This document shows, one piece after another, positions 1,819 through 64,000 of a stretch of 64,000 nt of DNA; position 1 is the stretch's first letter; each line of letters begins with the position of its first letter. Under the pieces are notes generated by a model. It made no database searches. It was not told where the DNA came from and worked only from the letters and a program-made list of their open reading frames with translations. The stretch comes from Hormiphora californensis (lineage: Eukaryota > Animalia > Ctenophora). The DNA lies in the NCBI GenBank assembly GCA_020137815.1, contig CM035355.1, positions 2,852,001-2,916,000 on the forward strand, in the 5' to 3' direction. The position numbers were made by a program, and so were the translations under genes.

Positions 1819-17523
<15,705 letters not shown>

Positions 17524-17863: not shown

Positions 17864-19390
17864 CAGAATACAGATCCACGCTAAATATAGTAGGAATCCT
17901 ACTGCAGTAGGAGGGTCTACTGCAGTAGGAGGGTCTATGATTGAATCCATTTTAACTACAAGGTACAGATGTAATAACAGGTTAATTGCATAATAAGGAT
18001 CGGTTCACGGGATATGATTTATTTAGCTGCACCCCATCACAAAAAATTGGAAAATGTAATAGGACATTGTGGCAAATGTCAACAAGTTCGTTTCGAGATG
18101 TTTTTTGAAAATAGGTTTAAAATTGAACAGATCTATACTATCAAAGTTAAAAATGTACAAGATTTGAGCGCTGATATCAAGTCCATTATTTATTCTTCCA
18201 GGAGATCTCTCATCTCCCTGGGACTTCCCCAGCTGAGGGATGTCCAAGAAGCAATCTACTGCTAAAATTTGCGTCAGAATTGTCACTGAGTCACTTTTCT
18301 GGCATTGGATTACGTCTTGTGTGGTGCATCTATTACATCCCCCAGCTGGAACGTCCGGCCAGCCCGGGAGAACTGTCGGGGGTACAAGGGAGGCTGCAAG
18401 GTAGGGGATTGCAAGGCAAGGTAGGGGACTGTGGCATATGAAAAGTCACTATTTGAAAGTCCATGGTGAGCTCAGGGCTGCCACGTCCGAGTTATTTTGA
18501 ATTTTGAAATTTGATCACAGAAAAACCAAGACACCCGAACGCGACAGAACGTAAATTTTTGTTTTTGAAACAAATTCCGCGCGCGCGATAAAAAACTATT
18601 AAACTATTAATGCGCGGCAATTTATTTGCGCGTGCGAAATATCGCTCTTGAAATTTTGCCAAAATAAAAACTGCTCCAAGTCAAAATTTTTGAAACTGTC
18701 CGCCCTTTTGGCTTTTTTTTTGCGTTACCTGAAAAGCGCTGCCTTATAGGGATCCCTAAAAAAGTTCAGTATTTACACAGAGTTTACACAGTCTTTACTC
18801 AGTCGTTACACCCAGAGCGGCGCGTGCTGCGCACAGTGGCTTTTTCCAAGAAAATATTGGATTGTGTGCTGCACAATTGACAAAATTGAGCGCTGCGGCG
18901 AAAAAAGTTTCCGAAAACGCTGCAAATCGAGTGCGAAAGACGCAGTCGTTACACCCAGAGCGGCGCGGGCGCTCTGGGTGTGGTAGCATACAATAATGCC
19001 TACGGTCAATAATGCCTACACCCTAAAACACCTAATTAGAGGTGGAGGGTAGGCAAAACTGCTTGTAGGCATTATCGTCAACACCAGGGGGGTAAACCGC
19101 AGTTTTGCCTACGGTACATAATGCCTACCATGTAGGCAAAACTGTGATTTTACCACTGATGTTGACAATAATGCCTACGAGCAGTTTTGCCTACCCTCCA
19201 CCTCAGGGTGTAGGCAGTATTGCATTGCAGTTGACAACTCGCTAAGGATATCTCGATTCGGTATATATATTTACCGAATCGAGATATTCTTAGCGAGTTG
19301 TCAACTGCAATGCAATCTTTCATTCTCTTTTCTATCAATATTTCAATATATAGAAATATATATATTGATAGAAAAGAGACTGAAAATAGA

Positions 19391-19421
<31 letters not shown>

Positions 19422-19438
19422 AAGAGAGAGAAAGAGAA

Positions 19439-19532
<94 letters not shown>

Positions 19533-19588
19533 AAAACAAGCTAGTTCATTATTATAAAACTGAAATAAAACTGAAATACAACTGAATT

Positions 19589-21737
19589 TTACACAAGTCT
19601 GCTCAAAGATCTGCAGTAAAGGGCAAGTCCGACAGTTCCGTAGTTACTGATGGCTTTCTTGATCCTCTCCTCAAGGTCCCGATACTTCTTCCTCCTCTTA
19701 GCGGCAGGAACGTTCCCAGTGAGGCAGTGCTCGATGTGTAGTTCGGCCTGTTGATTGAACTGGGTCAGGGCGTCCGCCAGGAGTCCACCAGAGGGATTAC
19801 TGCAACCGATGAAGCGGTTCAAGGCATTGTTGTTCCCCTCCGAGTGGTTGTTGGTACGGGGACCTCCGTCTAGGACAGTCTGGAACATGTTCCACATCCG
19901 GATAGGGTAGATGGGTGAAAGGATCCAGGTGGCTTCAAAGTAGTCTAGGAATACTCCCGCCGCAGCTGCTGTGGATGGTGAGAGGTTCAGTTTGAGGTAG
20001 TTCCAGGAGTCCACCACCTCGCCAACAGGAACGAATGCCAGTCCAAACAGAGTTTCCAGCTCCAGCTTGAGCACCGGGTCAGAGGGGTAGTCCTGGAGCT
20101 TCATTAGGTGTCGCCGTACTGCTTGCTTCCAGTGGAATAGGCAGCCCCGTATGTCTGCATCAGGGAAGTGTAGATTGATGGCTCCATGTTCGGCCTGCTC
20201 AAAGTCACAGAGTATGGTGTCCATGTTTAGGCGGGGGCAGGCAGCTTTTAGGATTTCCAGGCAGGTGGAGTAGGAAGAGGTAGTCTGGTCCTCCAGGAGA
20301 AAGTAGGCCAAAGGAGTAGCCTCGGAGCTTCCACATACATGGCCGCAGACGATCCAAAGTTGCCGGAAGTGTTTGGGTGCCACCTTGAAGGTTCCATCCA
20401 GATAGAGGGTGGAGTGGTGTTGGTTGAGGACTTCGAGGGTGTTGGTGGAGGCCATTGCAATAACACGCCGGTTGAGGTTGGTAATGAAATTCCCCCTCTG
20501 CGCTAGCTCACGGAGGGGTAATAATATCGCTTGTACGGCGGGAAAAAAATTCCTGTGTCCAAACTACAAAACAGAAAGTTCTAATTTTTTGAACATACCG
20601 AGGAAATTGTCTGAGCTACCATTACATACCGGAATTTTTCGATATTTTGGCCATTAACACTGTTTTTGTTTTTGGAAAACTATGAAGATGCTGGAATTTG
20701 GCTACAAAAAGCTTCAGAAATGTGCAAAATGCCATTCCAAAGGTATTAGAGGTGGATTCATTGATAACTAAGCTATAGTCGAGTCAGAATAAATTCCACA
20801 AGATTGGAATTTTATGCCCATATAAGGAGTTATGCGACACACCTCTGTTGTTAAACATGTGGTGGAATCGCTACCGGTCGCTACTTTCTGTAGAATGCAG
20901 GTCCTGGTTACTATACAAACTAGTACCATACGTTTTAGATAGGTTTTAGACAAGTTTTCGATAACTTTTCATGAGAAGGTCCTGTAAATTTTCATTTTTA
21001 GGTAGGCGGTATTGTCACCCCTTTGGCTGCGAAGGGGTTCGCGAAAAATCGCGCGCGAAAAAGAGGGCGCGACGTGCCCAAGTCACCCCTATATGCAATA
21101 ATAGGGGTGACTTCGTAACCAAGGTTGAGGGAGGTGGTGGTGTCCGAGAATATATGGAAGCCGGTCCCAGATGAAGGAAGAGGTAGGGAAAACTCTGTAG
21201 CGCATGTAGCTTCAATCAGGGGGTATCCTCTCTCCAGTCTCCTCTTGTAGGTAACTTTTCTCTTGAGCTTTTTTAGGTCAGGCAGCTCATGGATGGCGTC
21301 CTGGGGGGTCCCGCCTAGTAGACTGGTTACCAGCTTCGCAGGGGCGTCAGATGAAGAGGTAGTAACTTGCCGGAGTCTAGAGAGGAAGGCATTTGCCGAT
21401 GTTGTCTGGATGGAGGGGTCATGGGTGTGCGGGGTCTCCTTTACTACTCCAACTGGTTCATCGAGGGTGGTAGTTAGTCGTCCCGTACAGTTTGGTGTGT
21501 ACTGTTTCCGGTCCTTGCAGGCCCAGTGCTGGACTTTCTGGGTCTTCCTGTTTCCACAGTAGAGGTATCCATTATAGGCGGCCTGTCGTCCACCTTTAGC
21601 ACCAGTCAGGAATTGAAGAGAGGATGTGACAGGAGGAGGAGGGGTAGGTAGGGTAGGTGTAGCAGGCGGAGGAGGAGGAGGGGTAGGTAGGGTAGGTGTA
21701 GCAGGAAGAGGAGGAGGAGGAGTAGTAGGTCCAACCG
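19589..21737 (-). pseudogene. MULE transposase (FLYWCH zinc finger + MULE DDE domain), interrupted
   Basis: C-terminal part 20477-19589 has LYLDGTFKVAP, CDFE, GCLFHWKQA and RTNNHSEG motifs. N-terminal part ~21737-21123 reads FLTGAKGGRQAAYNGYLYC..HWACKDRK..CTGRLTT..PHTH. Removing 20478-21122 plus one TSD fuses them in frame (..TTTSLNRRVIAMAS..). No in-frame ATG was found at the 5' end. Confidence 0.9.
20478..21122. mobile_element. 645-bp non-autonomous TIR element inside the MULE transposase
   Basis: 8-bp TSD ggttgagg (20470-20477, 21123-21130); imperfect 20-bp TIRs ttggtaatgaaattccccct / aggggtgacttcgtaaccaa (15/20 match). Confidence 0.85.
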
Positions 21738-23072
21738 ATTAGCATAGTGAATGAGACATGAGAGCTCCTCTAATCGTTGTAACAAGCCGTTAGATGAACC
21801 GCCCATATCACGTATCCAATCCGACATGAGACATGAGAGCTTAAGCCTTACCGATTAGAGGAGCTCTCATGTCAATCGGTTTACTCCAATAACTAACGAG
21901 CCATATCTCCTATATCGTATTGGTGCCGCCCTCAGGGTCACGTTACCAATCGGGATATGATGATTTGACGCTTGTAGGCATTATCGCCATATCAACAATA
22001 ATATTGACGCTTTTGCCTACACCCAATCACCCCTGTAGGCATTATCGCCATATCAACAATAATATTGATGCTTTTGCCTACACCCAATTATCAATAATGT
22101 AGGCATTATTGATCGTAGGCATTATCGTACTTTATCGTAGGCATTATTGCCACCGTAGGCATTATTGCCGTTTTGACGGTTTTGCCTACACCCAATTATA
22201 TATGCCTATATACCCTGTAGGCATTATTGACCGTAGGCATTATCGTACGTAATCCTGGGTGTAACGACTGAGTAAAGACTGTGTAAACTCTGTGTAAATA
22301 CTGAACTTTTTTAGGGATCCCTATCCCGCGCTGCCAGTAACGTTTGCCAATTGCGTCGGTTACAGGTCATAGCTCCTGGGGAGCTCCTCCCAGCTCCACC
22401 CCCTGATAAGTTGAAATCTCCAAACTTAGAGGTTAGGAACTAGGAAGAATTCGACATTTTCTTCCTAGCCTCCAAATTTGAAGTTTTTATCTTTACAGGA
22501 ATCGGAGAGACGTAAGTTTTTTAAAATCAATGGTGGATTGGTGGGCGGACAGTTTTAAAATCGACATTTCTTTTTATTCTTTTGCTAGTATTGAATTCTC
22601 CTCCCTTTAAGAGGGGCCTACAGCGTATCCCAACTTTTTCTTTGTTCAAAGCCAATGCTCTGAGTCAAAGCCTCTGACAGGTTCAAAGAGGGCTCTCCGG
22701 CCTCCGCAAGCGGTGTGTAGTATGCATCAAAAACGCACGGTAAACGGCAAACACAAGACTTTTAAATTGTGTCATGTGTGTGCAAATGTTTCCAAGATGT
22801 TTCCAATGTATGGGATATGTTCACCTCAAACATTTGGCAGCGAAGCTGTCAGAGCATTGGCCTGACCCTATTCTCGGAGCGCGCAAGAACTGTGGTCAGA
22901 GCATTGGCCTGACAGGTCGGAAGGGGATAGCGCAACGTGCCCAACTCAAACATAAGGTCAAAAAGATTTCTGATAAGTTAAACGATTTCCAATTTTATTT
23001 CTAAAAGATAAAAACATAACAATAACTCATATTAATACTTCAAATGATCAATGAAAGAAAGTGAGCTGTCCC

Positions 23073-26000
23073 TCACTCCTCGTCTTTCAGCCACGGAGTC
23101 CATTTCAATAATTTCGTCTCACTGATGTCATTATACTCAACCTCTCCCTCCTTGAAGTCATAAGTCTTTATACCCACTCCGTCCGCAATATCTTGTGCAG
23201 AAAGTTTAAACTCGTCCACGAAAAACAGGGGCTTCCCCATTTTCGCTGCGTTCTCCGCCAAAACTGAGTACATTTTTCGAGCCATGCTTTCAAAGCGGCT
23301 ACTTTCAGTAAACAGGTCATATGACTCACTGGGATCAGATGACAGATCAAATAGCATTATATTGTCCGTTGTGAATGCCCCCACTTCCGAAATGTTTTGG
23401 TAAAATGTTCTAGAGGCACTATTTTCCGCCATTTTCTGTATGAAGCTCGACTGATTTCCAAAAAGAATCTTCGAATATTGAGAATACATTGTATCGTCGC
23501 CTTTGTAGTAGGTAGTGTCATTTTCTTTTATTAATGGTTGGAAAACCTCATCATAGGGACGTGGTGAGGGGTCCCCTACAATCAGTTTGTAATCGTTTGT
23601 AATGTACGCTGCCTGCTTGTAACATGGATCCAGCTCCAGGATTAGATCGGTCCGGGTCGGCTTATCTGCGTTACCGTACAGCACATCTGGACAAGAATTC
23701 AGTTAGTTTGTGAGTCAGAGTATAAAATTTATTTATATTTAATACAAAATTGTCTTGCAGTTAGCTCTAAACTTGTTGAGTAAGTACTACTAAGTAATAC
23801 TCAACAACTCAAAACTGAAGAATGACAGGTGTAAAACTTCTAAACTCACCCATCTGATTGACACCGTCCAATTCCAGCTTAGGTTTAACCCGGGCGATTT
23901 TAGCCAGCGTGGGTAGCCAGTCGGTAATGTGGAAGAGCTGATCGGAAACCCCCTGGGTGATGCCTGCTCCCCACACAAAGGCCGGTACCTTCACTCCTCC
24001 CTCCCATACCGTCCACTTGCTCCCCCTGAGTGGGTAATTATTGCCCCCAATCCAAGGGCTCCCTGCCCCCGGTCCCTGAACTGCCCCTCCATTATCACCA
24101 GTAAATATGACGATAGTGTTGTCTCCCATACCATTGGCTCTCAGTGCCTCCACTATCTGCTGCATCCCCGAGTCCAGACTGCTCATCAGCGCCGAGAACT
24201 TCCTCCGTATCTGGGGGTGGGGATGAGACGTAACACCACATACAATATAATAACTTATGTTAACACGTCCAGATACAATGGATCACGGTATTACTGATCT
24301 GTAACAGAAGATCTGTAACAGATCTATTATATTATAACTTCAGGTAATAAATACAGGTGATTGATCAGAGGACAACCTGAGCTGATGCTTCTGCTAGAGG
24401 CAGCTACCATGATAGCAACCCATGGCATTAAAATACTACCAAAGCAATCCATGATGAGGGGTTACCATAGCAACCTAAGAACCTACCGTATTTGTTGCGT
24501 TACTGGGAACTTTAGCGAGATCTTCATCCAGTGGTTGTAAGGGGCTGTGCGGGTTCATGTAACTGACAGTCAGGAATAGTGGGTCTCTCGTGTCGTGTCC
24601 CTTGGAGAAAAGACAGTTATGGGAAACTGGAATATAATATCTTATGCAGGATTTATTTCACGATTTGGGCGAACAACCAAATCTTTATTCATCAAACAAG
24701 AATAATTGCGGTATAATGCCATACCGCCTGATTTCCCCGCCAACCATGTGATCTGGCATGTGCCAGTTGCCACACCTGCTTCTAATTGGGCACTGATACG
24801 TGAGCCGGTATAGCTGATGGGTTGCCTGAGCTATGTGATATCCTAGTAATAATAATAAGTCGCAGTTCCGATCACAAATGCAGAACAATGTTCATTGCAC
24901 AATGACGTAGGGCGCGATGACAAATCTATGAACAATTGTAATTGCAAGTGCAACATAAAGGCGCCGCGCACATGCGCACGAACTTCCTGTTGTGTTCAGT
25001 CAGTAAGTGACAGCATTCCGCACTGGATAGTTGCCAACAGCAACTCAGGAGGTTACGTTACAGGATTTAAGCGTGACACTTCACTAGTATGTAAAATAAA
25101 ATTGTCGAATTCTAAACCCCTATGCCTTTTTACAAAAGGCATCCGGGTGAATGCCTTCGGCATTCACCGGGCGGGGAAAAAATCTTTTTCTAACATTAAT
25201 ATATGAACAGTAGATCTACCTCGATGATCTCCACAGCTTTGTCTGTGAAGAGTTTCTCTGAAAATACACCGTACGTGTCCATGATCAGTTTTCTGTTCGC
25301 TTCATCTGTCTCAACTATATTACCGTCTGATGGGGGGGGGGGGGTTAAGGGGTGATGATAGTCAATGATCTTTGGTCACACATTTTTGAGGAATAACGGG
25401 GTGTGGGTAACATGTTAAATAGCTGGTTGGAGACAGAGTATAATTATAAGGTAGTTTATAATGTCTTCTCACCCGAATCAAGTGTTTGTTCGTGCAGATC
25501 AAATACTTGGACACCCGGGGACTCTGGCTCAGCCATTTCGTGGGTAAAATAGTCAGCGAACCCACCGTACATTCCCTGGAACTTATCGAATCCTCTCCTG
25601 GTGGTAATTAAGAGTTGTGAGGACTGCTGTACGAAAATTGGTACAAGGAGTGACGTGACAAAATGTGCTTTATAAATTATTCACAAATAGCTACACAAAA
25701 CAGCTGGTTTCCCCGCAGCTACAAATACGCAAGAAAAAAGCTAAATTTTAGCAACTTTTTGTTCTGCAAGCTTTTTTGAAACTGATCCTCTCTCACTTAG
25801 CACAGTGACCCACATGAATGACGAGGTGCTGTGATTTTCTTAGAAAAATGCTGTTAATCAGGCTGTGTAAGAGAGGAATATATACCACTTAACTACAGCT
25901 ACAACATCATAATAAAGGTACTGGTTAGCGTTGGAAGGTCGCACACACACCCTCCCTTAACACAGCGCTGACAAGGGCTCTAGAAATATTATGTGCTGTA

Positions 26001-26721
26001 ATTACTCAAGTGGGGATTTGTGAGTTAGGTAGTTGGAGACTCCTCCGTACATTCCATAAAACATATCAAATCCTCTCCTGAGTAGTATTGTTATATGTTT
26101 TCAATCCAATCACTGATCTGTTTTCAAAAGCTGTGAGTATCGTGTAGTTATGACATGCGTTACTATTTTGCAGGAAGATAAATGCCTTCGCATTGATTGA
26201 AGTGTTGGTATTTTGACGAGAGCTATAGATCTGAGGACTGTATTTGAAATGGAATATACCCTGCGTTGAGACGAATATTGGGTAGGTGTTCAGAAAGGGA
26301 CTGATGTCGGAGCTTGAATGACTTGAATTCTGATAAATTTTAAGTAGAAGATGAGAATGACAGAGAGTATGTGATGCGAAAGTATATTTCAGAAAATTCT
26401 ATCAGGTTTTTTTTTAAAACAAACTTCCTACTGATATGATTGGTTGTGAAGAGTTACAGGAAACGATCGTCCCCCATAATGATTCTTCATCAGAACCTGA
26501 AGACACCCTTCTGAAACACCCTGTAATACCCACTCTGCACCCACTTACTTTAGCGGAGTGTAGTCCCAGGATGCATATCCCAGGTGCCACTTCCCCACCA
26601 GGGCTGTCGTGTAACCTCCCTCTGACATTATCTGAGAGAAAGGGAGGGGTTGGGAGAGAGATGACAGACAGAGAGACAGGTACACAGAAACAGTCGCAGA
26701 AAAACAAACAAACAAACATAC

Positions 26722-26764
<43 letters not shown>

Positions 26765-27423
26765 TTGTACGCTACCTGTGGTAGCAGTTGATTTTCACTG
26801 AGTGGCAGGCCGATTTTAGCCCCATATAAAAGAGGTCGGGCTCCCTGCATGCCATACCGGAAAGGGTACCGGCCTGTGAACAGGGCTGCCCGAGCCGGGG
26901 TACAGATCGACTGGCCATAGTAGTTATCAAGCCTCAATCCCGAACTGAAACATGGGGAGTCTAATGTTAGAGTGAAGTTGAGGTGGTAACTAGGTGCTTC
27001 CCAGTCCCCTTTCCACTTGTTTCCCACCCCTGACTCAACAACTATAAACCACCGGCCCTAGATTGAAGATTCCCATTCTCGAATCCACCTAACTTTTGTC
27101 TACTTCATTTCAATACCTTGCTAGTTTGTCCAGGAATGGTGTCCTAATATCACCATGCTGGTTATAATACCCGATATCGTTGTGACCCATATCATCAGCT
27201 ATTATCAGCACCACATTCGGTTTAGGCTCCTGGAATTGGTTTTGATAATTTACCCGCTGTTCTTTTGAAGGAATAATTAGTGAAATATTAAGTCAATTGG
27301 TTTTATTACTACACCCCACGGTATAGAATGGTGTAAAACGTACCTGTTTGCCCTTTACTGTCAGGGTAATTGATAGCGTTACTATAGCGACAATGATAAT
27401 ACACAGAACCAGTAATAGGTAAT
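23073..27423 (-). CDS. Arylsulfatase (ARSB/ARSI/ARSJ-like, formylglycine-dependent sulfatase) with N-terminal hydrophobic segment
   Basis: In-frame exons 27423-27344 ([20 protein letters not shown]), 27229-27117 ([19 protein letters not shown]), 26944-26776 ([13 protein letters not shown]), 26631-26549 ([12 protein letters not shown]), 25597-25473 (RGFD), 25326-25220, 24600-24487 (PLFL..NPHSPLQ), 24210-23850 ([29 protein letters not shown]), 23686-23073 ([10 protein letters not shown], stop). The first exon is ambiguous (see findings). Confidence 0.95.
24694..25182 (-). mobile_element. Helentron-associated non-autonomous element (HINE/DINE-1-like), copy 1
   Basis: T-run, subTIR tttccccgcc, two hairpins, then subTIR ggcggggaaa, stem-loop gcggtat..ataccgc and terminal ttcttgttt. 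Confidence 0.7.
26006..26077 (-). CDS. Duplicated RGFD exon of the arylsulfatase (cassette or relic)
   Basis: [23 protein letters not shown] parallels [20 protein letters not shown] of exon 25597-25473; CAG acceptor and GTAATT donor, 72 nt, phase 2-2. Confidence 0.6.
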
Positions 27424-36234: not shown

Positions 36235-48845
<12,611 letters not shown>

Positions 48846-56040: not shown

Positions 56041-56990
56041 ATGCATATAAAATGTGTGGTGTTGTATGGGCTTAATATATCTTCCTTATAACTCATCTAT
56101 TTGGGGTATTAAAATCATACCGAGTCCAATCTTTTAGCAGGGGCCCGGAAGAGGGCCCGAATAGAGGAGAGAGACGGAAAGAGAGATGGAACCCAGGAAC
56201 CCCTCCTTCGCCTGACAGAGGGCACAATGGAGAGGCGACCTTCCGAGAAATTCAGAAGCATCCGGATGAGACACCCACCCGACTGAGGCGAAGACGTGAA
56301 ATGGGAGCGGCAGACCCACGACGAGAGACGAAGAGAGACGGAGAGAGCGGAAGAGAGAGGTTGACCAGCCAAGAGACGAGGAAGAGACCAAAAGGAGGAG
56401 AGAGAGAAGAGAGAAGAGGTTAACCAAGGTGAAGGGGACGGGAGGGAAAAGGAGGAAAGAGAGAAAGAAGGAGAGGGAAGTCACTAACTCATAGTTAAAC
56501 TGGGGATAAAGAATAGAGAGATAAAAAGAGCGAATAAAAGTAATGAAAGCTTGAAAGCTAAAGTTCAAAGGTTTGCGAATGCTGTGAATGGTGGTTTCTA
56601 GGTGGAGGCCGAGGTCCCAAGAGGGTGTCACATACAAAAAAATAGCGTCCCCCCAGGGATCTTTTGTTTGTGAATTTCGGGGGTTTTTGGGCTCTTAGCT
56701 CACCATCTTTCATTTGGCAGCAGTGGAAAAGGGTTGTTTATACAAGTGGGTCCCAATTTCCCGTAATAGGGGAATAATAGGAACAATGGAACATTTGGAA
56801 CTCCAAATTTGGCTTTTTTAAAAAACTAATTCGACTGGTTACCCGTTCTGGTTTTATTTTGTTTTCGCTTGCCAAAAACTATTGAGAAAAAGTTAATATT
56901 GGTATCATACAAATCGTCGTGAATCAGTTTAATCCCCAAATTATGTTGTAAAGCCATAATTAGTGGAATCCTTTCTTTGTCCCCTAACTC
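56041..56990 (+). repeat. Noisy duplicate of ~58870-59660 (likely uncollapsed haplotype or low-quality read)
   Basis: Colinear shared blocks (tgtgtggtgttgtatggg; gtgtcacatacaaaaaatagcgt; ggaacatttggaactccaaatttggcttt; caaatcgtcgtgaatcagttt) on either side of the N gap at 57011-57110. Confidence 0.8.
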
Positions 56991-59090: not shown

Positions 59091-61555
59091 AGAGAGGGAG
59101 AGAGAGAGATCACTATCACTCATCAGTTGATAACATGGGGGCATAATAGAGATACCGAGAGATAAAAGGAGAGGGTAGTAAGAAGTAATAAACTTTCAAG
59201 TAAATGAGAATGTTGCAAAGAGAATATGAAACTGAAATTGTTAATGCCTGGTTTGCTGCATGGGTGTGTGCAGGGAGGTCCGAGGGGGTGTCACATACAA
59301 AAAATAGCGTTCCCCCAAGCATTATTTTGTTTGTCGAATTTCGGGGGTTTTTGGGCTCTTTAGCTCACCATCTTACACTGCAGCAGCTGGAAGGGGTTGT
59401 TATACCATGTGGTGTCCCATTATTCCCCTATAATAGGGGAATAATAGGACCACATGGAACATTTGGAACTCCAAATTTGGCTTTAAAAAACTAACTTCGA
59501 CTAGGTTTACCCGTTGCTGGTTATATTTTGTTTTCGCTTGCCCAAAAACTTATGAGATAAACAGTTAACTATTGGTTATCATATCAAATCGTCGTGAATC
59601 AGTTTCAATCCACAAATTACTGTCTGGATAAAGCCACTAATTAGTGGAAACCTTTGCTTTCGTCTCTCTCACTCTCTCTCTATCTCTCTCTCTCTCGGTC
59701 CACTACACGCACCACTCCCACATGGGGCCGTAAGGTCCCATGTGGAAACAGGGTTAAATCCCCCGAGCCCGGATCCTGTTGGATCTGAGGGCCCGGAGGG
59801 CCTGCGGAGTAAAGGTAGGTAGAACAATGTACATATGGGTAGGTAGAACAATGTACATATAGGTTAAGGTAAGGAAAAATTAAAATAAAATAGGGGAAGT
59901 AAAGCTCATGGTGGCGGAGCAAAAGACCTCCTAAACTATCTGGAAAGAAGCCCAATCTGCTGCAATGAAGCCTAAGGAGAGTCAACCTATCAGGAACAGA
60001 AGAAGCGAACCATCTGAATCTAAGGCAGCCTAAAACAAGCAGGAACGGGTTTAAAAAAATAATTAAGTGGGTACAAATACAGGAGGATGCTTACATGTCG
60101 AGAACTTTCCGGAGCGTGTTCATCGAGTTAAACAGGACCGACTTCTGGAGCTGAGAGGTGTATATCTGGCGGGTTATAGCAGACAGGTACTTCTCCAGTC
60201 GGGGGCTTACTCCACCAAGAGCTCCGATCACGATGGGGATGACCGTTACCTTTTTGAGTTCCCAGATTCTCGTGATCTCCCTCCGTAATTCCTGGTACTT
60301 CTCGATCTTCTCCACCTCCCTGTCCGAGACTATCCTGTCTTTCGGAACGGCAACATCAATGAGAAGTGCCTCTTTCTTTCTTTTGTCCAAAAGAACCAAG
60401 TCGGGCTTGCAGGCCTCGATGGGGTTGTCTGTTTGTATGTGGAAGTCCCAGAGTATCTTATAGTTGTCGTTTTCCAGTACTTTTTCTGCGTAATGGCTCC
60501 ACCACTTGGACTCTGCGGGGAATCCAAGGTCTCTACACATTCCCCAGTGTAGTGCAGCAGCTACTCGATCATGACGCAGTTTGTAGTCTCCATTGGCTAG
60601 TTTCGTGCATCCGTTGAGGATGTGTTCGACTGACTCATTGTGTTGGTTGCAGATACGGCATTTCTCTGTCATTCCGGTTTCTTTCTGTATGGCAGCTCTC
60701 AACCAGTTCGTGCGAGTGGCTTGATCCTGGGCAGCAAATACATCGGCTTCGGTGTATCTGCTGAGGCTCTCTTTGTTGAGCCAGGCCCAGGTCGCGTCAG
60801 GGTCGCAGCCCCCCTTCTTCAAGCTGCGTCAAGAATCTTCCATGTAACACTTTGCTCTTCCATTTCTCCATCAGCTCCGCTTCCAATCTTTCCTTGAGAG
60901 CTTCTGCATTCTCTGGGGGCGTGTTCATCATGTTCTCTCTCTGCATCGCTGCGTGGAGTGCACGTAACTTAGGGTCTGTGGTGTTGTTGAAGAAACGTCA
61001 CTAGTCCTGTTTCCTCCTTTACTATGACGTCTTCAATCCGCTGGAGGCCCCTTCCTCCCAGCTTCCTATTTACGTACAATCGATCAATGTCGCTGTTACT
61101 CTTGATGAACCCTCTTCTCAGGATCTTTCTAGTAATCATGTCTAATCCTTTGGCCTCAGCAGTGGTCCAGTCCAGTATCCCAGCACCGTAACGGATCACT
61201 GGTATCGCCCAGGTGTTGATCGCAGTGACAAGGTTCTTGCTATTCAGGCTCGAAGCTATTAGTCTTTTAATTCTTCTGATGTATTCAGATCTGACCTTCG
61301 TCTTCATCTCTTGGTGCAGGATATAGTCAACCTCCAGGATGCCGAGGTATTTATATCCACCATCTTCCACTTCCGGGATTGTATCTCCACTGGGTAGTTC
61401 GATACCTTGCATCTGTTGTCTGACCCCGTCAACAATGTCAATTGATCCACATTTAGCTATGCCAAAAGACATGTTGATATCGGTACTGAACTTCTCAGTA
61501 ACTTCCAGAAGATGTTGGAGGTCTTCTCTTGGCAGGTGAGTAGAACTTCGCTCCT

Positions 61556-61672
61556 AATAAAAGGCTGCAATAAAAGGCTGCAGAAAAAGGCTGCAATAAA
61601 AGGCTGCAATAAAAGGCTGCAATAAAAGGCTGCAATAAAAGGCTGCAATAAAAGGCTGCAATAAAAGGCTGC
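61556..61672. repeat. 13-bp tandem array aataaaaggctgc x9 (left TIR)
   Basis: Counted directly; unit 3 is the variant agaaaaaggctgc. Confidence 0.97.
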
Positions 61673-62668
61673 AAGGGATCACGTATCCAACCAGACTAAA
61701 GCGGGGGATAGACCGAATCGTCCTACCCTAATAGTGTTTCGTATCACGTATCGGCTGTAGAGAGACCGAATCACCATCCCCTAATTATAGTGATTCGTGT
61801 CACGTATCCAACTAGACCATATGCGATAGAGACCGAGATAGAGAGCGAGTACGAATGAGAACTGAGAGAGTGAAAAATCAGAATCACGGTATGGTATCAC
61901 GTACCATGGTATCCTCTAATGAAAAGCGGTTACCAATTGACAATGAGACCTCATCGGTCCCGATACGTGATTCTCTACCGCTATGTATTCTCCATTAGTC
62001 TTTCCGTATCGATCCACGATTCAGTAGAGGTAGTCAGTAACTACTGAGAGTGTTGGTCTAATGAGGTAGCTACCTACCGGTACGATAGATCCATTGATTG
62101 AGCGTGTAGCACAATGACAGGTGAACCACCCAACCACTTGGTTCACCTATCATAGTATTATGTGTGATTCCGCTCTACTGAATTGTGTACATAAAGACTA
62201 TTGGCGAATAACGGTAGAAAATCAGTAATCACGTATTGGCACCGATTAGGTGAAATTATAGGTAACCGCCTTTCATTTAATTAACCAACACTCTCAGTAG
62301 TTACTGACTACCTCTACTGAATCGTTGATCGATACGGAAAGACTAATGGAGAATACATAGCGGTAGAGAATCACGTATCGGGACCGATGAGGTCTCATTG
62401 TCAATTGGTAACCGCTTTTCATTAGAGGATACCATGGTACGTGATACCATACCGTGATTCTGATTTTTCACTCTCTCAGTTCTCACTCGTACTCGCTCTC
62501 TATCTCGGTCTCTATCGCATATGGTCTAGTTGGATACGTGACACGAATCACTATAATTAGGGGATGGTGATTCGGTCTCTCTACAGCCGATACGTGATAC
62601 GAAACACTATTAGGGTAGGACGATTCGGTCTATTCCCCGCTTTAGTCTGGTTAGATACGTGATCCCTT

Positions 62669-62798
62669 GCAGCCTTTTATTGCAGCCTTTTATTGCAGCC
62701 TTTTTCTGCAGCCTTTTATTGCAGCCTTTTATTGCAGCCTTTTATTGCAGCCTTTTATTGCAGCCTTTTTCTGCAGCCTTTTATTGCAGCCTTTTATT
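62669..62798. repeat. 13-bp tandem array gcagccttttatt x10 (right TIR)
   Basis: Counted directly; two variant units gcagcctttttct. Confidence 0.97.
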
Positions 62799-63522
62799 AG
62801 GAGCGAAGTTCTACTCACCTGCCCTTCTCTTGAACTTGAGTAAAGTTTCAAGTCGTCCATGTAGAGCCTATGATTAATGTTGATCACTTCTTCTTCCTCT
62901 TGTGTGTCTGGTGCGGATATGGTGTAGCCTCTTCCTTCGGCAGTTAGGAGCATGGACAGGGGGATTAGTCCGATAATGAAATGTATCGGGGAGACAGAGT
63001 CTCCTTGGAAGAGGCCTCTCTTGATATGTACTTTGCCTAAGGTGGAGCCGGACTGTACTAAATTGACTCTGCACTGCTGGAACGATGCTTGGAACAGTCT
63101 TATTATCTGGGGGTGTACTTTCAGCATTTCCATTGTCTTCAGGATCCAAGAGTGGGGGATGGAATCGTATGCCTTCTGATAGTCTATGAAGGCCATGTGT
63201 AGCTCAGTTTTGTTGCGCTTGCAGTGGCGAAGGATTAATTTGTCAATCGCTAACTGTTCTTTACACCCTCTGCTCTTCTTGCGGCACCCCTTCTGCTCCT
63301 CAGGGAATAAACTGTTTACATCCAGGTGCTCGTAAATGTCCTCTGATAAGATTCCTGTATACAACTTCCAAAGGTTTGGGAGGCAGGTGATGGGTCTAAA
63401 ATTCCCCGGGTTGGACATTCCCTTCTTGGGGTCTTTGATCAGGAGGAATGTTCTACCTTCAGTCATCCACTCTGGGACCTGACTTGTAGTGAGGCTGTCT
63501 GTCTCTCTCTTTCTCTCTCTCT

Positions 63523-63554
<32 letters not shown>

Positions 63555-64000
63555 CCCCCCTCTCGTTGTGTACTTATAATAGCTGTGGTTTACCTAAGAT
63601 CAATGCCATACAGAGTAACAACAAGAAGCTCTTTCTGCTCTCTACATATAATAACCTCCCTCTATACTGATCCAAGTAGCTCCACTCATGTGTACAAGCT
63701 TACTAGTTTATGCCATGCAACGTTACTTCATCTCTCCAACCTGTTAACCCGCTCAAAGCAGCTCCTCCGTATTTTACTAGACCTTAGCTCATTGTAATGA
63801 AAGCTCCTGACTAGTAATCTCCTGAGTAGTAAAGATACTGTAAGATTGTAAGTGAATTACTATATCATGCTACAATCGCGCTTCAATTCATGTTCCTTTC
63901 GTCAATTTCTGTTTACTCACTGTTGTTTTTACCCAACATGTAACAAGAGATCTCAGAATCTATCAGTATCATCCTCTCAAACCGTTATATTATTGCCCGT

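What the first reader, a model, noticed from the sequence alone, without database searches (positions are those of the whole stretch)
61531..62823. Candidate bidirectional introner: a fold-back transposon whose TIRs encode its own in-frame removal by splicing
Seen: each end begins GGCAG|GTGAGT, a consensus 5' splice site 5 nt inside the terminus. Read toward the far end, the same TIR gives repeated CCTTTTATTGCAG (pyrimidine tract + CAG) and finally CCTTTTATTAG|GAGCGAAGTTCTACTCACCTGCC. Splicing from the donor to the last AG (61536-62800 on +, 62818-61554 on -; 1265 nt) leaves 5+23 nt of element plus the 8-nt TSD = 36 nt, a multiple of 3. The 28 element-derived nt contain no stop in any of the three frames. 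In the host RT ORF the product would read ..SSSRE-GQERSSTHLPRE-DLQHLL.., restoring the frame at this site. Because the element is palindromic this holds in either orientation. Established: introners are DNA transposons that create spliceosomal introns. Inference: this is an orientation-independent version using long TIRs. Caveats: internal CAGs would give 47-, 60-, 73-nt scars (frameshift or stop here), the long hairpin could hide the splice sites, and the host ORF is already broken elsewhere.
Basis: partly seen in the sequence, partly recalled or inferred. Interest (0 to 1): 0.85.

Follow-up and report, generated by a model that had tools for sequence, protein, structure and literature searches.

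The report
Fold-back transposon with unproven splice signals
A young, many-copy, hairpin-shaped jumping element, likely from a comb jelly, carries a textbook intron start and a frame-keeping intron end in both directions, but nothing yet shows that it is spliced out, and its own predicted hairpin and rival splice sites would work against clean removal.

Summary
The family is multi-copy with the same end in two organisms; the host is likely a ctenophore. The anatomy (short terminal motif, 9-10 subterminal 13-bp repeats, 8-bp duplication) is that of Muta/Phantom-type Mutator fold-backs, where such repeats aid transposase binding. Splicing is not shown: four shallow RNA runs gave no element or junction contig, and the tool probably cannot see scars at other loci. 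Against clean in-frame removal: 9-10 upstream CAGs with equal pyrimidine tracts, 0 of 8 inferred host introns ending in TAG, all splice signals predicted paired in a -1,100 kcal/mol stem, eight AATAAA after the donor, and a truncated, broken host LINE. For it: the donor beats all 8 host donors and is unlikely by chance at that place. Either-orientation introners and 12-nt-scar introners are already published. The scan noted a similar unproven case on other DNA. Verdict: new Mutator-like fold-back family; introner reading open, about 20%.

The parts
61523..61530 (.). left copy of the 8-bp target site duplication (CTTCTCTT)
   Evidence: single copy at empty sites
62824..62831 (.). right copy of the 8-bp target site duplication
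61531..62823 (.). non-autonomous fold-back DNA transposon, 1,293 bp, no ORF (longest stop-free frame 70 codons)
   Evidence: contigs with unlike flanks stop at its ends in X1, X2, X11
61531..62057 (+). left inverted arm, 527 bp
62284..62823 (-). right inverted arm, 540 bp
62058..62283 (.). 226-bp spacer between the arms, non-coding
61556..61674 (+). left subterminal array, 9.2 copies of a 13-bp unit; reads as eight AATAAA on +, as nine pyrimidine-CAG units on -
62667..62798 (+). right subterminal array, 10.2 copies; ten pyrimidine-CAG units on +, eight AATAAA on -
61533..61541 (+). 5' splice-site consensus CAG|GTGAGT (predicted donor, cut after 61535)
62813..62821 (-). same predicted donor on the minus strand (sense of the host LINE)
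62790..62803 (+). terminal predicted acceptor CCTTTTATTAG|GAG (TAG gives 36 nt, GAG 33 nt with the duplication)
61551..61564 (-). same terminal predicted acceptor on the minus strand
60091..63499 (-). host: 5'-truncated non-LTR retrotransposon copy (residues 517-1215 of a 1,215-aa relative), interrupted shortly after the YMDD motif and frameshifted again downstream

Best explanation
This is a young, multi-copy, non-coding fold-back DNA transposon that landed in a broken LINE with an 8-bp duplication, is likely moved in trans by a Muta/Phantom-type Mutator transposase, and is likely not a clean in-frame intron. Its 13-bp arrays are likely transposase-binding repeats whose two strands happen to read as AATAAA and as pyrimidine-CAG. 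If a transcript runs through it, the strong donor would be seen first and may be used, but the arms are predicted to zip into a stem of more than 500 bp that buries all acceptors, so the likely outcomes are mixed: splicing to one of many CAGs or to a host acceptor, hairpin-triggered imprecise excision, early polyadenylation, or silencing. Shown: structure, duplication, multi-copy family, conserved end. Inferred: superfamily, role of the arrays, fate of transcripts.
For: Anatomy matches Aedes Muta families: 8-9 bp duplications, TIRs over 100 bp, 9-15 bp subterminal tandem repeats in 10 of 12 long-TIR families, Muta1 with 9 copies of a 12-bp unit (PMC5225508 passages); more repeats strengthen transposase binding and excision (PMC5499845 passages); Tm1 fold-backs have 13-15 bp units in unequal numbers at the two ends (PMC3169594 passages). 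The same window holds a FLYWCH+MULE fold-back with an 8-bp duplication and subterminal repeats. Only 2 of 13 (+) and 2 of 12 (-) AGs from the array outwards give a frame-keeping scar free of stops in all frames; 10 and 9 CAGs with equal pyrimidine counts come first. Of 8 introns inferred in a host sulfatase gene none ends in TAG (6 CAG, 1 AAG, 1 CAG or GAG). Predicted fold -1,099.9 kcal/mol; donor and all 11 AGs tested on the minus strand are paired, and freeing an 11-nt U1 footprint does not free the TAG. The host LINE lacks its first 516 residues and is frameshifted again, so nothing is rescued here; 0 of 120 RT relatives carry the scar peptides.
Against: The donor has 10 of 11 possible U1 pairs (G-U counted), more than any of the 8 inferred host donors (6-9), and its place in the terminal motif has a chance of 1e-4 to 8e-3; frame plus stop-free scar adds about 1 in 11. 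No variant at 1% of depth or more is listed in the outer 32 nt (TTTTATTAG to the end) in X1 or X11, while the array varies. No transposase partner was found: tblastn of 17 MULE relatives gave nothing (best E 0.61), and the shared motif with the window's MULE is not significant (35 of 500 shuffles reach the score). Equilibrium folding ignores co-transcriptional U1 binding.
Confidence: 0.62

Rival explanations
1. Bidirectional in-frame introner: U1 binds the donor as it is made, the stem then hides the internal CAGs, the spliceosome uses the outermost TAG or GAG, and exonic copies persist as introns with an 11-12 residue scar.
For: Donor stronger than all 8 inferred host donors; both terminal AGs keep frame and are stop-free; joint chance roughly 1e-5 to 1e-3 per family; outer 32 nt without listed variants in two organisms; when the first 25 nt are held open only the terminal TAG becomes partly free (0.51) and all CAGs stay paired; precedents for scar-leaving and either-orientation introners; Tc1 is speculated to carry spliceosomal sites in its ITRs (PMC12779559 passage).
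Against: No junction or element contig in 4 RNA runs (weak); no exonic copy known; pyrimidine tract and branch region stay paired even in the most favourable fold (mean unpaired 0.06); TAG absent from 8 host acceptors; Muta-type elements make 8- and 9-bp duplications, and 9 bp would give 37 nt; surveyed introner families have median lengths of 30-654 nt and only two animal groups had them in 2022; conserved ends are expected for transposase binding alone.
Confidence: 0.2
2. Hairpin-triggered, spliceosome-independent excision (SOS splicing) removes the element from mRNA at scattered sites near its ends, whatever its splice-like motifs.
For: Base-paired inverted terminal repeats are necessary and sufficient in C. 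elegans and human cells, excision is imprecise and rarely GU-AG (PMC12779559, first part of the text and passages). This element is predicted to be an almost perfect stem.
Against: Shown only in two bilaterians; the factors (AKAP17A, CAAP1, RTCB) could not be looked up in this host; the Tc1 repeats tested there are 54 nt, a tenth of these arms.
Confidence: 0.1
3. Same non-autonomous fold-back, but of the Merlin (or hAT/P) superfamily and not Mutator.
For: Merlin makes 8-9 bp duplications, can hold tandem repeats and has intact ORFs in ctenophore genomes (PMC8101967 passages); GG ends are typical of Merlin (recalled).
Against: 0 hits for four terminal or array motifs in the 11 supplementary files of that paper, which include Pleurobrachia Merlin contigs; arms over 500 bp with a subterminal array fit Mutator fold-backs better.
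Confidence: 0.08

Closest known systems
Muta1 and relatives of Aedes aegypti (Phantom group of Mutator-like elements; type 2 fold-backs; PMC5225508, PMC5499845, PMC6446971, passages read)
   Same: Short terminal motif, about nine subterminal repeats of 12-13 bp, 8-bp duplication, many non-autonomous derivatives.
   Different: Arms here run 527-540 bp and fill most of the element; no 10-bp palindrome at the very end; no transposase partner identified; no splice signals came up in the passages read.
Tm1 Mutator/Foldback family of root-knot nematodes (PMC3169594, passages read)
   Same: Non-coding fold-backs with 13-15 bp tandem units, unequal numbers at the two ends.
   Different: Tm1 has asymmetric 7-bp outer motifs and 9-bp duplications in the copies described; here the ends are perfectly inverted.
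Introners of Aureococcus sp. family 4 (PMC9860276, Fig. 2F legend read) and Polarella glacialis classes 6, 8, 10, 3 (bioRxiv 10.1101/2020.10.14.339549, first two of four parts read)
   Same: 8-nt duplication; both splice sites carried with added codons (Aureococcus sp., 4+8 nt); introns made in either orientation (Polarella).
   Different: Those are found as introns inside host genes; the Aureococcus example is under 100 nt; here the element is 1.3 kb, would add 36 nt, has ten rival acceptors, sits in a dead LINE and has no splicing evidence.
Tc1/Tc3 removal from C. elegans mRNA, SOS splicing (PMC12779559)
   Same: Paired inverted ends in a read-through transcript; possible back-up by spliceosomal sites in the ends.
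   Different: Not spliceosomal in the main route, imprecise, and untested outside bilaterians.

Membership tests
Introner | Multi-copy mobile element whose similarity stops at its boundaries | tested here: met
   10 contigs in X2, 11 in X11 and 4 in X1 leave the element at its end into unlike flanks
Introner | Carries or co-opts both splice sites | tested here: met
   In sequence only: donor and terminal TAG/GAG on both strands
Introner | Is removed from transcripts at those sites | tested here: inconclusive
   No element or junction contig in X19, X20 (left half) or X15, X21 (right end); depth about 2-14 on the LINE at best, and a scar elsewhere shares only 25 nt with the window
Introner | Copies stand as introns in host coding exons, absent in orthologues | not testable with these tools
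   No genome held; the only copy in hand is in a broken LINE
Introner | Reading frame kept across the family (constant duplication length and acceptor) | tested here: inconclusive
   True on paper for this copy with TAG or GAG; duplication length known for one insertion only
Muta/Phantom-type Mutator fold-back | TIRs longer than 100 bp | tested here: met
   527 and 540 bp
Muta/Phantom-type Mutator fold-back | Subterminal tandem repeats of 9-15 bp | tested here: met
   13-bp unit, 9.2 and 10.2 copies
Muta/Phantom-type Mutator fold-back | Duplication of 8-9 (up to 11) bp | tested here: met
   8 bp, confirmed by empty sites
Muta/Phantom-type Mutator fold-back | Mobilised by a MULE-domain DDE transposase sharing the same ends | tested here: inconclusive
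   No coding remnant; the window's own MULE has different ends and no significant shared sequence
Muta/Phantom-type Mutator fold-back | Muta1-like 10-bp imperfect palindrome at the very end | tested here: not met
   Read directly from the sequence: the first 10 nt are not palindromic; an imperfect palindrome lies at nt 8-23. This feature is described for Muta1, not for the whole group
Merlin | 8-9 bp duplication | tested here: met
   definition
Merlin | DDE_Tnp_IS1595 transposase with the same ends | tested here: inconclusive
   0 motif hits in the supplements holding ctenophore Merlin contigs
SOS-splicing substrate | Base-paired inverted ends in an mRNA | tested here: inconclusive
   Pairing predicted; presence in an mRNA not shown
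SOS-splicing substrate | Host has AKAP17A, CAAP1 and RTCB | not testable with these tools
   No genome held

The most novel reading that the evidence does not exclude
A 1.3-kb Mutator-type fold-back of comb jellies is an orientation-independent introner that carries both splice sites in each arm and uses its own hairpin to hide ten decoy acceptors and steer the spliceosome to the last one, leaving an 11-12 residue scar in any frame: the first introner of a ctenophore and the first of fold-back build in the papers searched.
Probability: 0.2. Interest if true: 0.72.

Novelty: new member of a known kind. Interest (0 to 1): 0.4.

Why it matters
As it stands it is one more non-autonomous fold-back family, though a clean and young one shared by two organisms. 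If junction reads confirmed it, it would add an animal lineage to the short list with intron-making transposons, give a case where RNA structure selects a splice acceptor inside a transposon, and allow a direct test of spliceosomal against hairpin-triggered removal of one element in an early-branching animal. The test is cheap: one k-mer search in species RNA-seq.

Tried and rejected
Whole genome: none held. Terminal 23-mer: 0 hits in JGI metagenomes, IMG/VR and GTDB genomes; array motif 0 in IMG/VR. A looser two-motif pattern gave 4 loci, all the same bacterial-type region with no similarity to the element by blastn: rejected as chance. No second copy in the window. Link to the window's FLYWCH-MULE through a shared ATCACGTATCCAA motif: score 30, reached by 35 of 500 shuffles: rejected as evidence. 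Five DNA joints from the terminal 24-28 nt or the array to inner positions do not fit GT-AG on either shift tested: not splice-derived copies. Scar peptides (5-residue words, three frames) in 137 fetched proteins: none; 108 of 120 RT relatives have the uninterrupted spacing after the DD motif, none the longer one (6 without the motif, 4 not scored, 2 shorter). Sulfatase homolog search for the taxon: no hit. Rfam: 0 matches in 60000-64000. Depth sums were not used as copy numbers. Paper searches without result: introner+ctenophore (1 unrelated paper), ctenophore+foldback+transposon (0), six splicing terms (0), Pleurobrachia+intron gain (5 listings, none on introners by title), three sequence motifs (0); ctenophore names and the terminal motif in 12 of 14 supplementary files of PMC12130899 (0; files 13 and 14 not searched, and long tables may be cut, so this does not show whether ctenophores were surveyed).
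Full report
Observation. The stretch 61531-62823 is a 1,293-bp fold-back: arms of 527 and 540 bp around a 226-bp spacer. The first 106 nt of the arms are identical, the inner 383 nt differ at 4 places, and the right arm has one more unit of a 13-bp array (9.2 against 10.2 copies). It is flanked by CTTCTCTT on both sides. It encodes nothing (longest stop-free frame 70 codons) and matches no Rfam family.

Host site. The element interrupts the reverse-transcriptase frame of a non-LTR retrotransposon on the minus strand shortly after YMDD. Against a 1,215-aa relative at 84-94% identity over the main pieces, the window's copy covers residues 517-1215 only and changes frame again downstream of the insertion. 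So even perfect splicing would rescue nothing at this site. The named relatives among the RT hits are from Bolinopsis microptera, a ctenophore (51% and 50% identity); two further hits, one to the RT and one to the window's MULE, carry 'sb' identifiers that I recall as Pleurobrachia gene models. The host is therefore likely a comb jelly; this is an inference, and a search with a host sulfatase exon gave no hit.

A real, young family. No genome is held, so I used public runs (24 listed, 6 DNA runs of organism A at about 0.7 of the words, 5 of organism B at about 0.2, 6 RNA or possibly-RNA rows, all environmental). Contigs leave the element exactly at its end into unlike flanks: 10 in X2, 4 in X1 and 11 in X11 of organism B. 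Other LINE copies show the empty site with one copy of the 8-mer in X1, X2, X11 and in one 151-nt contig of the oligo-dT run X19, which proves the duplication length for this insertion. In the table of other letters (threshold 1% of depth, so single-copy variants can be hidden) no variant is listed in 62792-62823 for X1 or X11, whereas the array shows substitutions, indels and shortened forms in X11. The donor and the TTTTATTAG are thus kept in both organisms, but so would any transposase-binding end be.

What it looks like. Aedes Mutator-like families have 8-9 bp duplications, TIRs over 100 bp and 9-15 bp subterminal repeats; Muta1 has nine 12-bp units behind a short terminal motif and makes both 8- and 9-bp duplications (PMC5225508, passages). 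More repeats strengthen transposase binding and raise excision (PMC5499845, passages). Nematode Tm1 fold-backs have 13-15 bp units in unequal numbers at the two ends (PMC3169594, passages). Muta elements fall in the Phantom group (PMC6446971, passages). The window itself holds a FLYWCH+MULE element at 18982-22254 with an 8-bp duplication and subterminal repeats. Its ends differ from ours and a shared inner motif is not significant (35 of 500 shuffles), so the partner is not identified. Merlin is a lesser candidate (PMC8101967, passages; 0 motif hits in its 11 supplementary files). This gives an ordinary reason for the array that needs no splicing.

Evidence for function of the splice signals. 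The donor has 10 of 11 possible U1 pairs with G-U counted, against 6-9 for 8 donors inferred in a host sulfatase gene (the gene model is my inference from frames, a ninth anchor pair failed, and the U1 consensus is recalled). CAGGTRAGT occurs nowhere else in 124,814 positions (0.87 expected); the chance of one in a 25-nt end is about 1e-4, or 8e-3 for GTRAGT alone; 27% of 28-mers are stop-free. The TAG is followed by GAG, and that site also keeps frame (33 nt).

Evidence against clean removal. Ten CAGs on plus and nine on minus precede the TAG with the same pyrimidine count; three on each strand keep frame but carry a stop in one frame, the one the RT uses here; the rest shift frame. None of the 8 inferred host introns ends in TAG. 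The transcript is predicted to fold at -1,099.9 kcal/mol. On the minus strand the donor and all 11 AGs tested are paired; holding an 11-nt U1 footprint open leaves the TAG paired; holding the first 25 nt open frees the TAG half the time (0.51) while its upstream 20 nt stay paired (0.06) and all CAGs stay buried. That last result is the one hint that the stem could favour the terminal site. Eight AATAAA follow the donor within 130 nt in either orientation, a possible early poly(A) site (from general knowledge of animal 3'-end signals). A 9-bp duplication, as Muta1 also makes, would give 37 nt.

Direct test. Four of the six RNA rows were laid. X19 (3 contigs) and X20 (4 contigs) cover only LINE sequence at depth 2-14; none enters the element beyond the one chance base at the empty site. 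X15 and X21 gave nothing on 62600-62900. All are contigs of environmental runs, and the shortest piece listed on its own was 31 nt, whereas a scar at another locus shares 25 nt with the window, so this test likely cannot see it. None of 120 RT relatives has a scar. Splicing is neither shown nor excluded.

What is known. Introners that carry both sites and add codons exist (Aureococcus sp., 4+8 nt), family median lengths are 30-654 nt, and only two animal groups had them in the 2022 survey (PMC9860276, parts 1-3 of 7 and passages). Classes with 8-nt duplications that make introns in either orientation are described in Polarella and said to resemble Aureococcus (bioRxiv 10.1101/2020.10.14.339549, parts 1-2 of 4; its supplements are closed). 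The 2025 survey adds a sea urchin and names no ctenophore, Mutator or fold-back in its main text (PMC12130899, parts 1-2 of 7 and term search). Paired inverted ends by themselves trigger imprecise, mostly non-GU-AG excision in C. elegans and human cells, and the authors speculate that transposons also evolve spliceosomal sites in their ends (PMC12779559, part 1 of 13 and passages). Orientation independence is therefore not new; an introner of this size and build in a ctenophore would be, as far as the searches reach.

Verdict. Real element, correct arithmetic, unproven function. Most likely a new non-autonomous Muta/Phantom-type fold-back whose transcripts would be handled in mixed ways (0.62); clean bidirectional introner 0.2; hairpin-triggered excision as the main route 0.1; other superfamily 0.08. 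Interest 0.4, because one k-mer search in species RNA-seq would settle a question worth 0.7 if positive.

Noticed in passing
window 18982-22254: A second fold-back: FLYWCH and MULE frames on the minus strand, 8-bp duplication CTGGGTGT, subterminal repeats with a GTAGGCA core at both ends; its ends carry no donor consensus.
   Followed up: partly
window 23073-27420 (-): Arylsulfatase-like gene with at least 8 inferred GT-AG introns of 87-954 nt; a second RGFD-type exon-like stretch at about 26030-26085 lies upstream of the one at about 25595, possibly a duplicated or mutually exclusive exon.
   Followed up: partly
window 61554-61599 to 61828-62188 (run X1): DNA contigs pair the outer 24-26 nt or array pieces with different inner positions; not GT-AG; either copies nested in other copies or deletion derivatives.
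   Followed up: partly
window 61679-62662: The inner arms repeat a TCACGTA motif (six times on plus, five on minus); similar motifs lie at 21808 upstream of the MULE frames and at 24797 in a sulfatase intron.
   Followed up: partly
window 12236-13156: Tandem array of 28.8 copies of a 32-bp unit at 96% matches.
   Followed up: no
window 56540-56990 and 59270-59660: Two rough copies of one stretch on either side of a 100-N gap, the first full of homopolymer errors: likely an assembly artefact.
   Followed up: no
window 46511-47464 (+): Open frame of 317 codons with no Pfam match.
   Followed up: no
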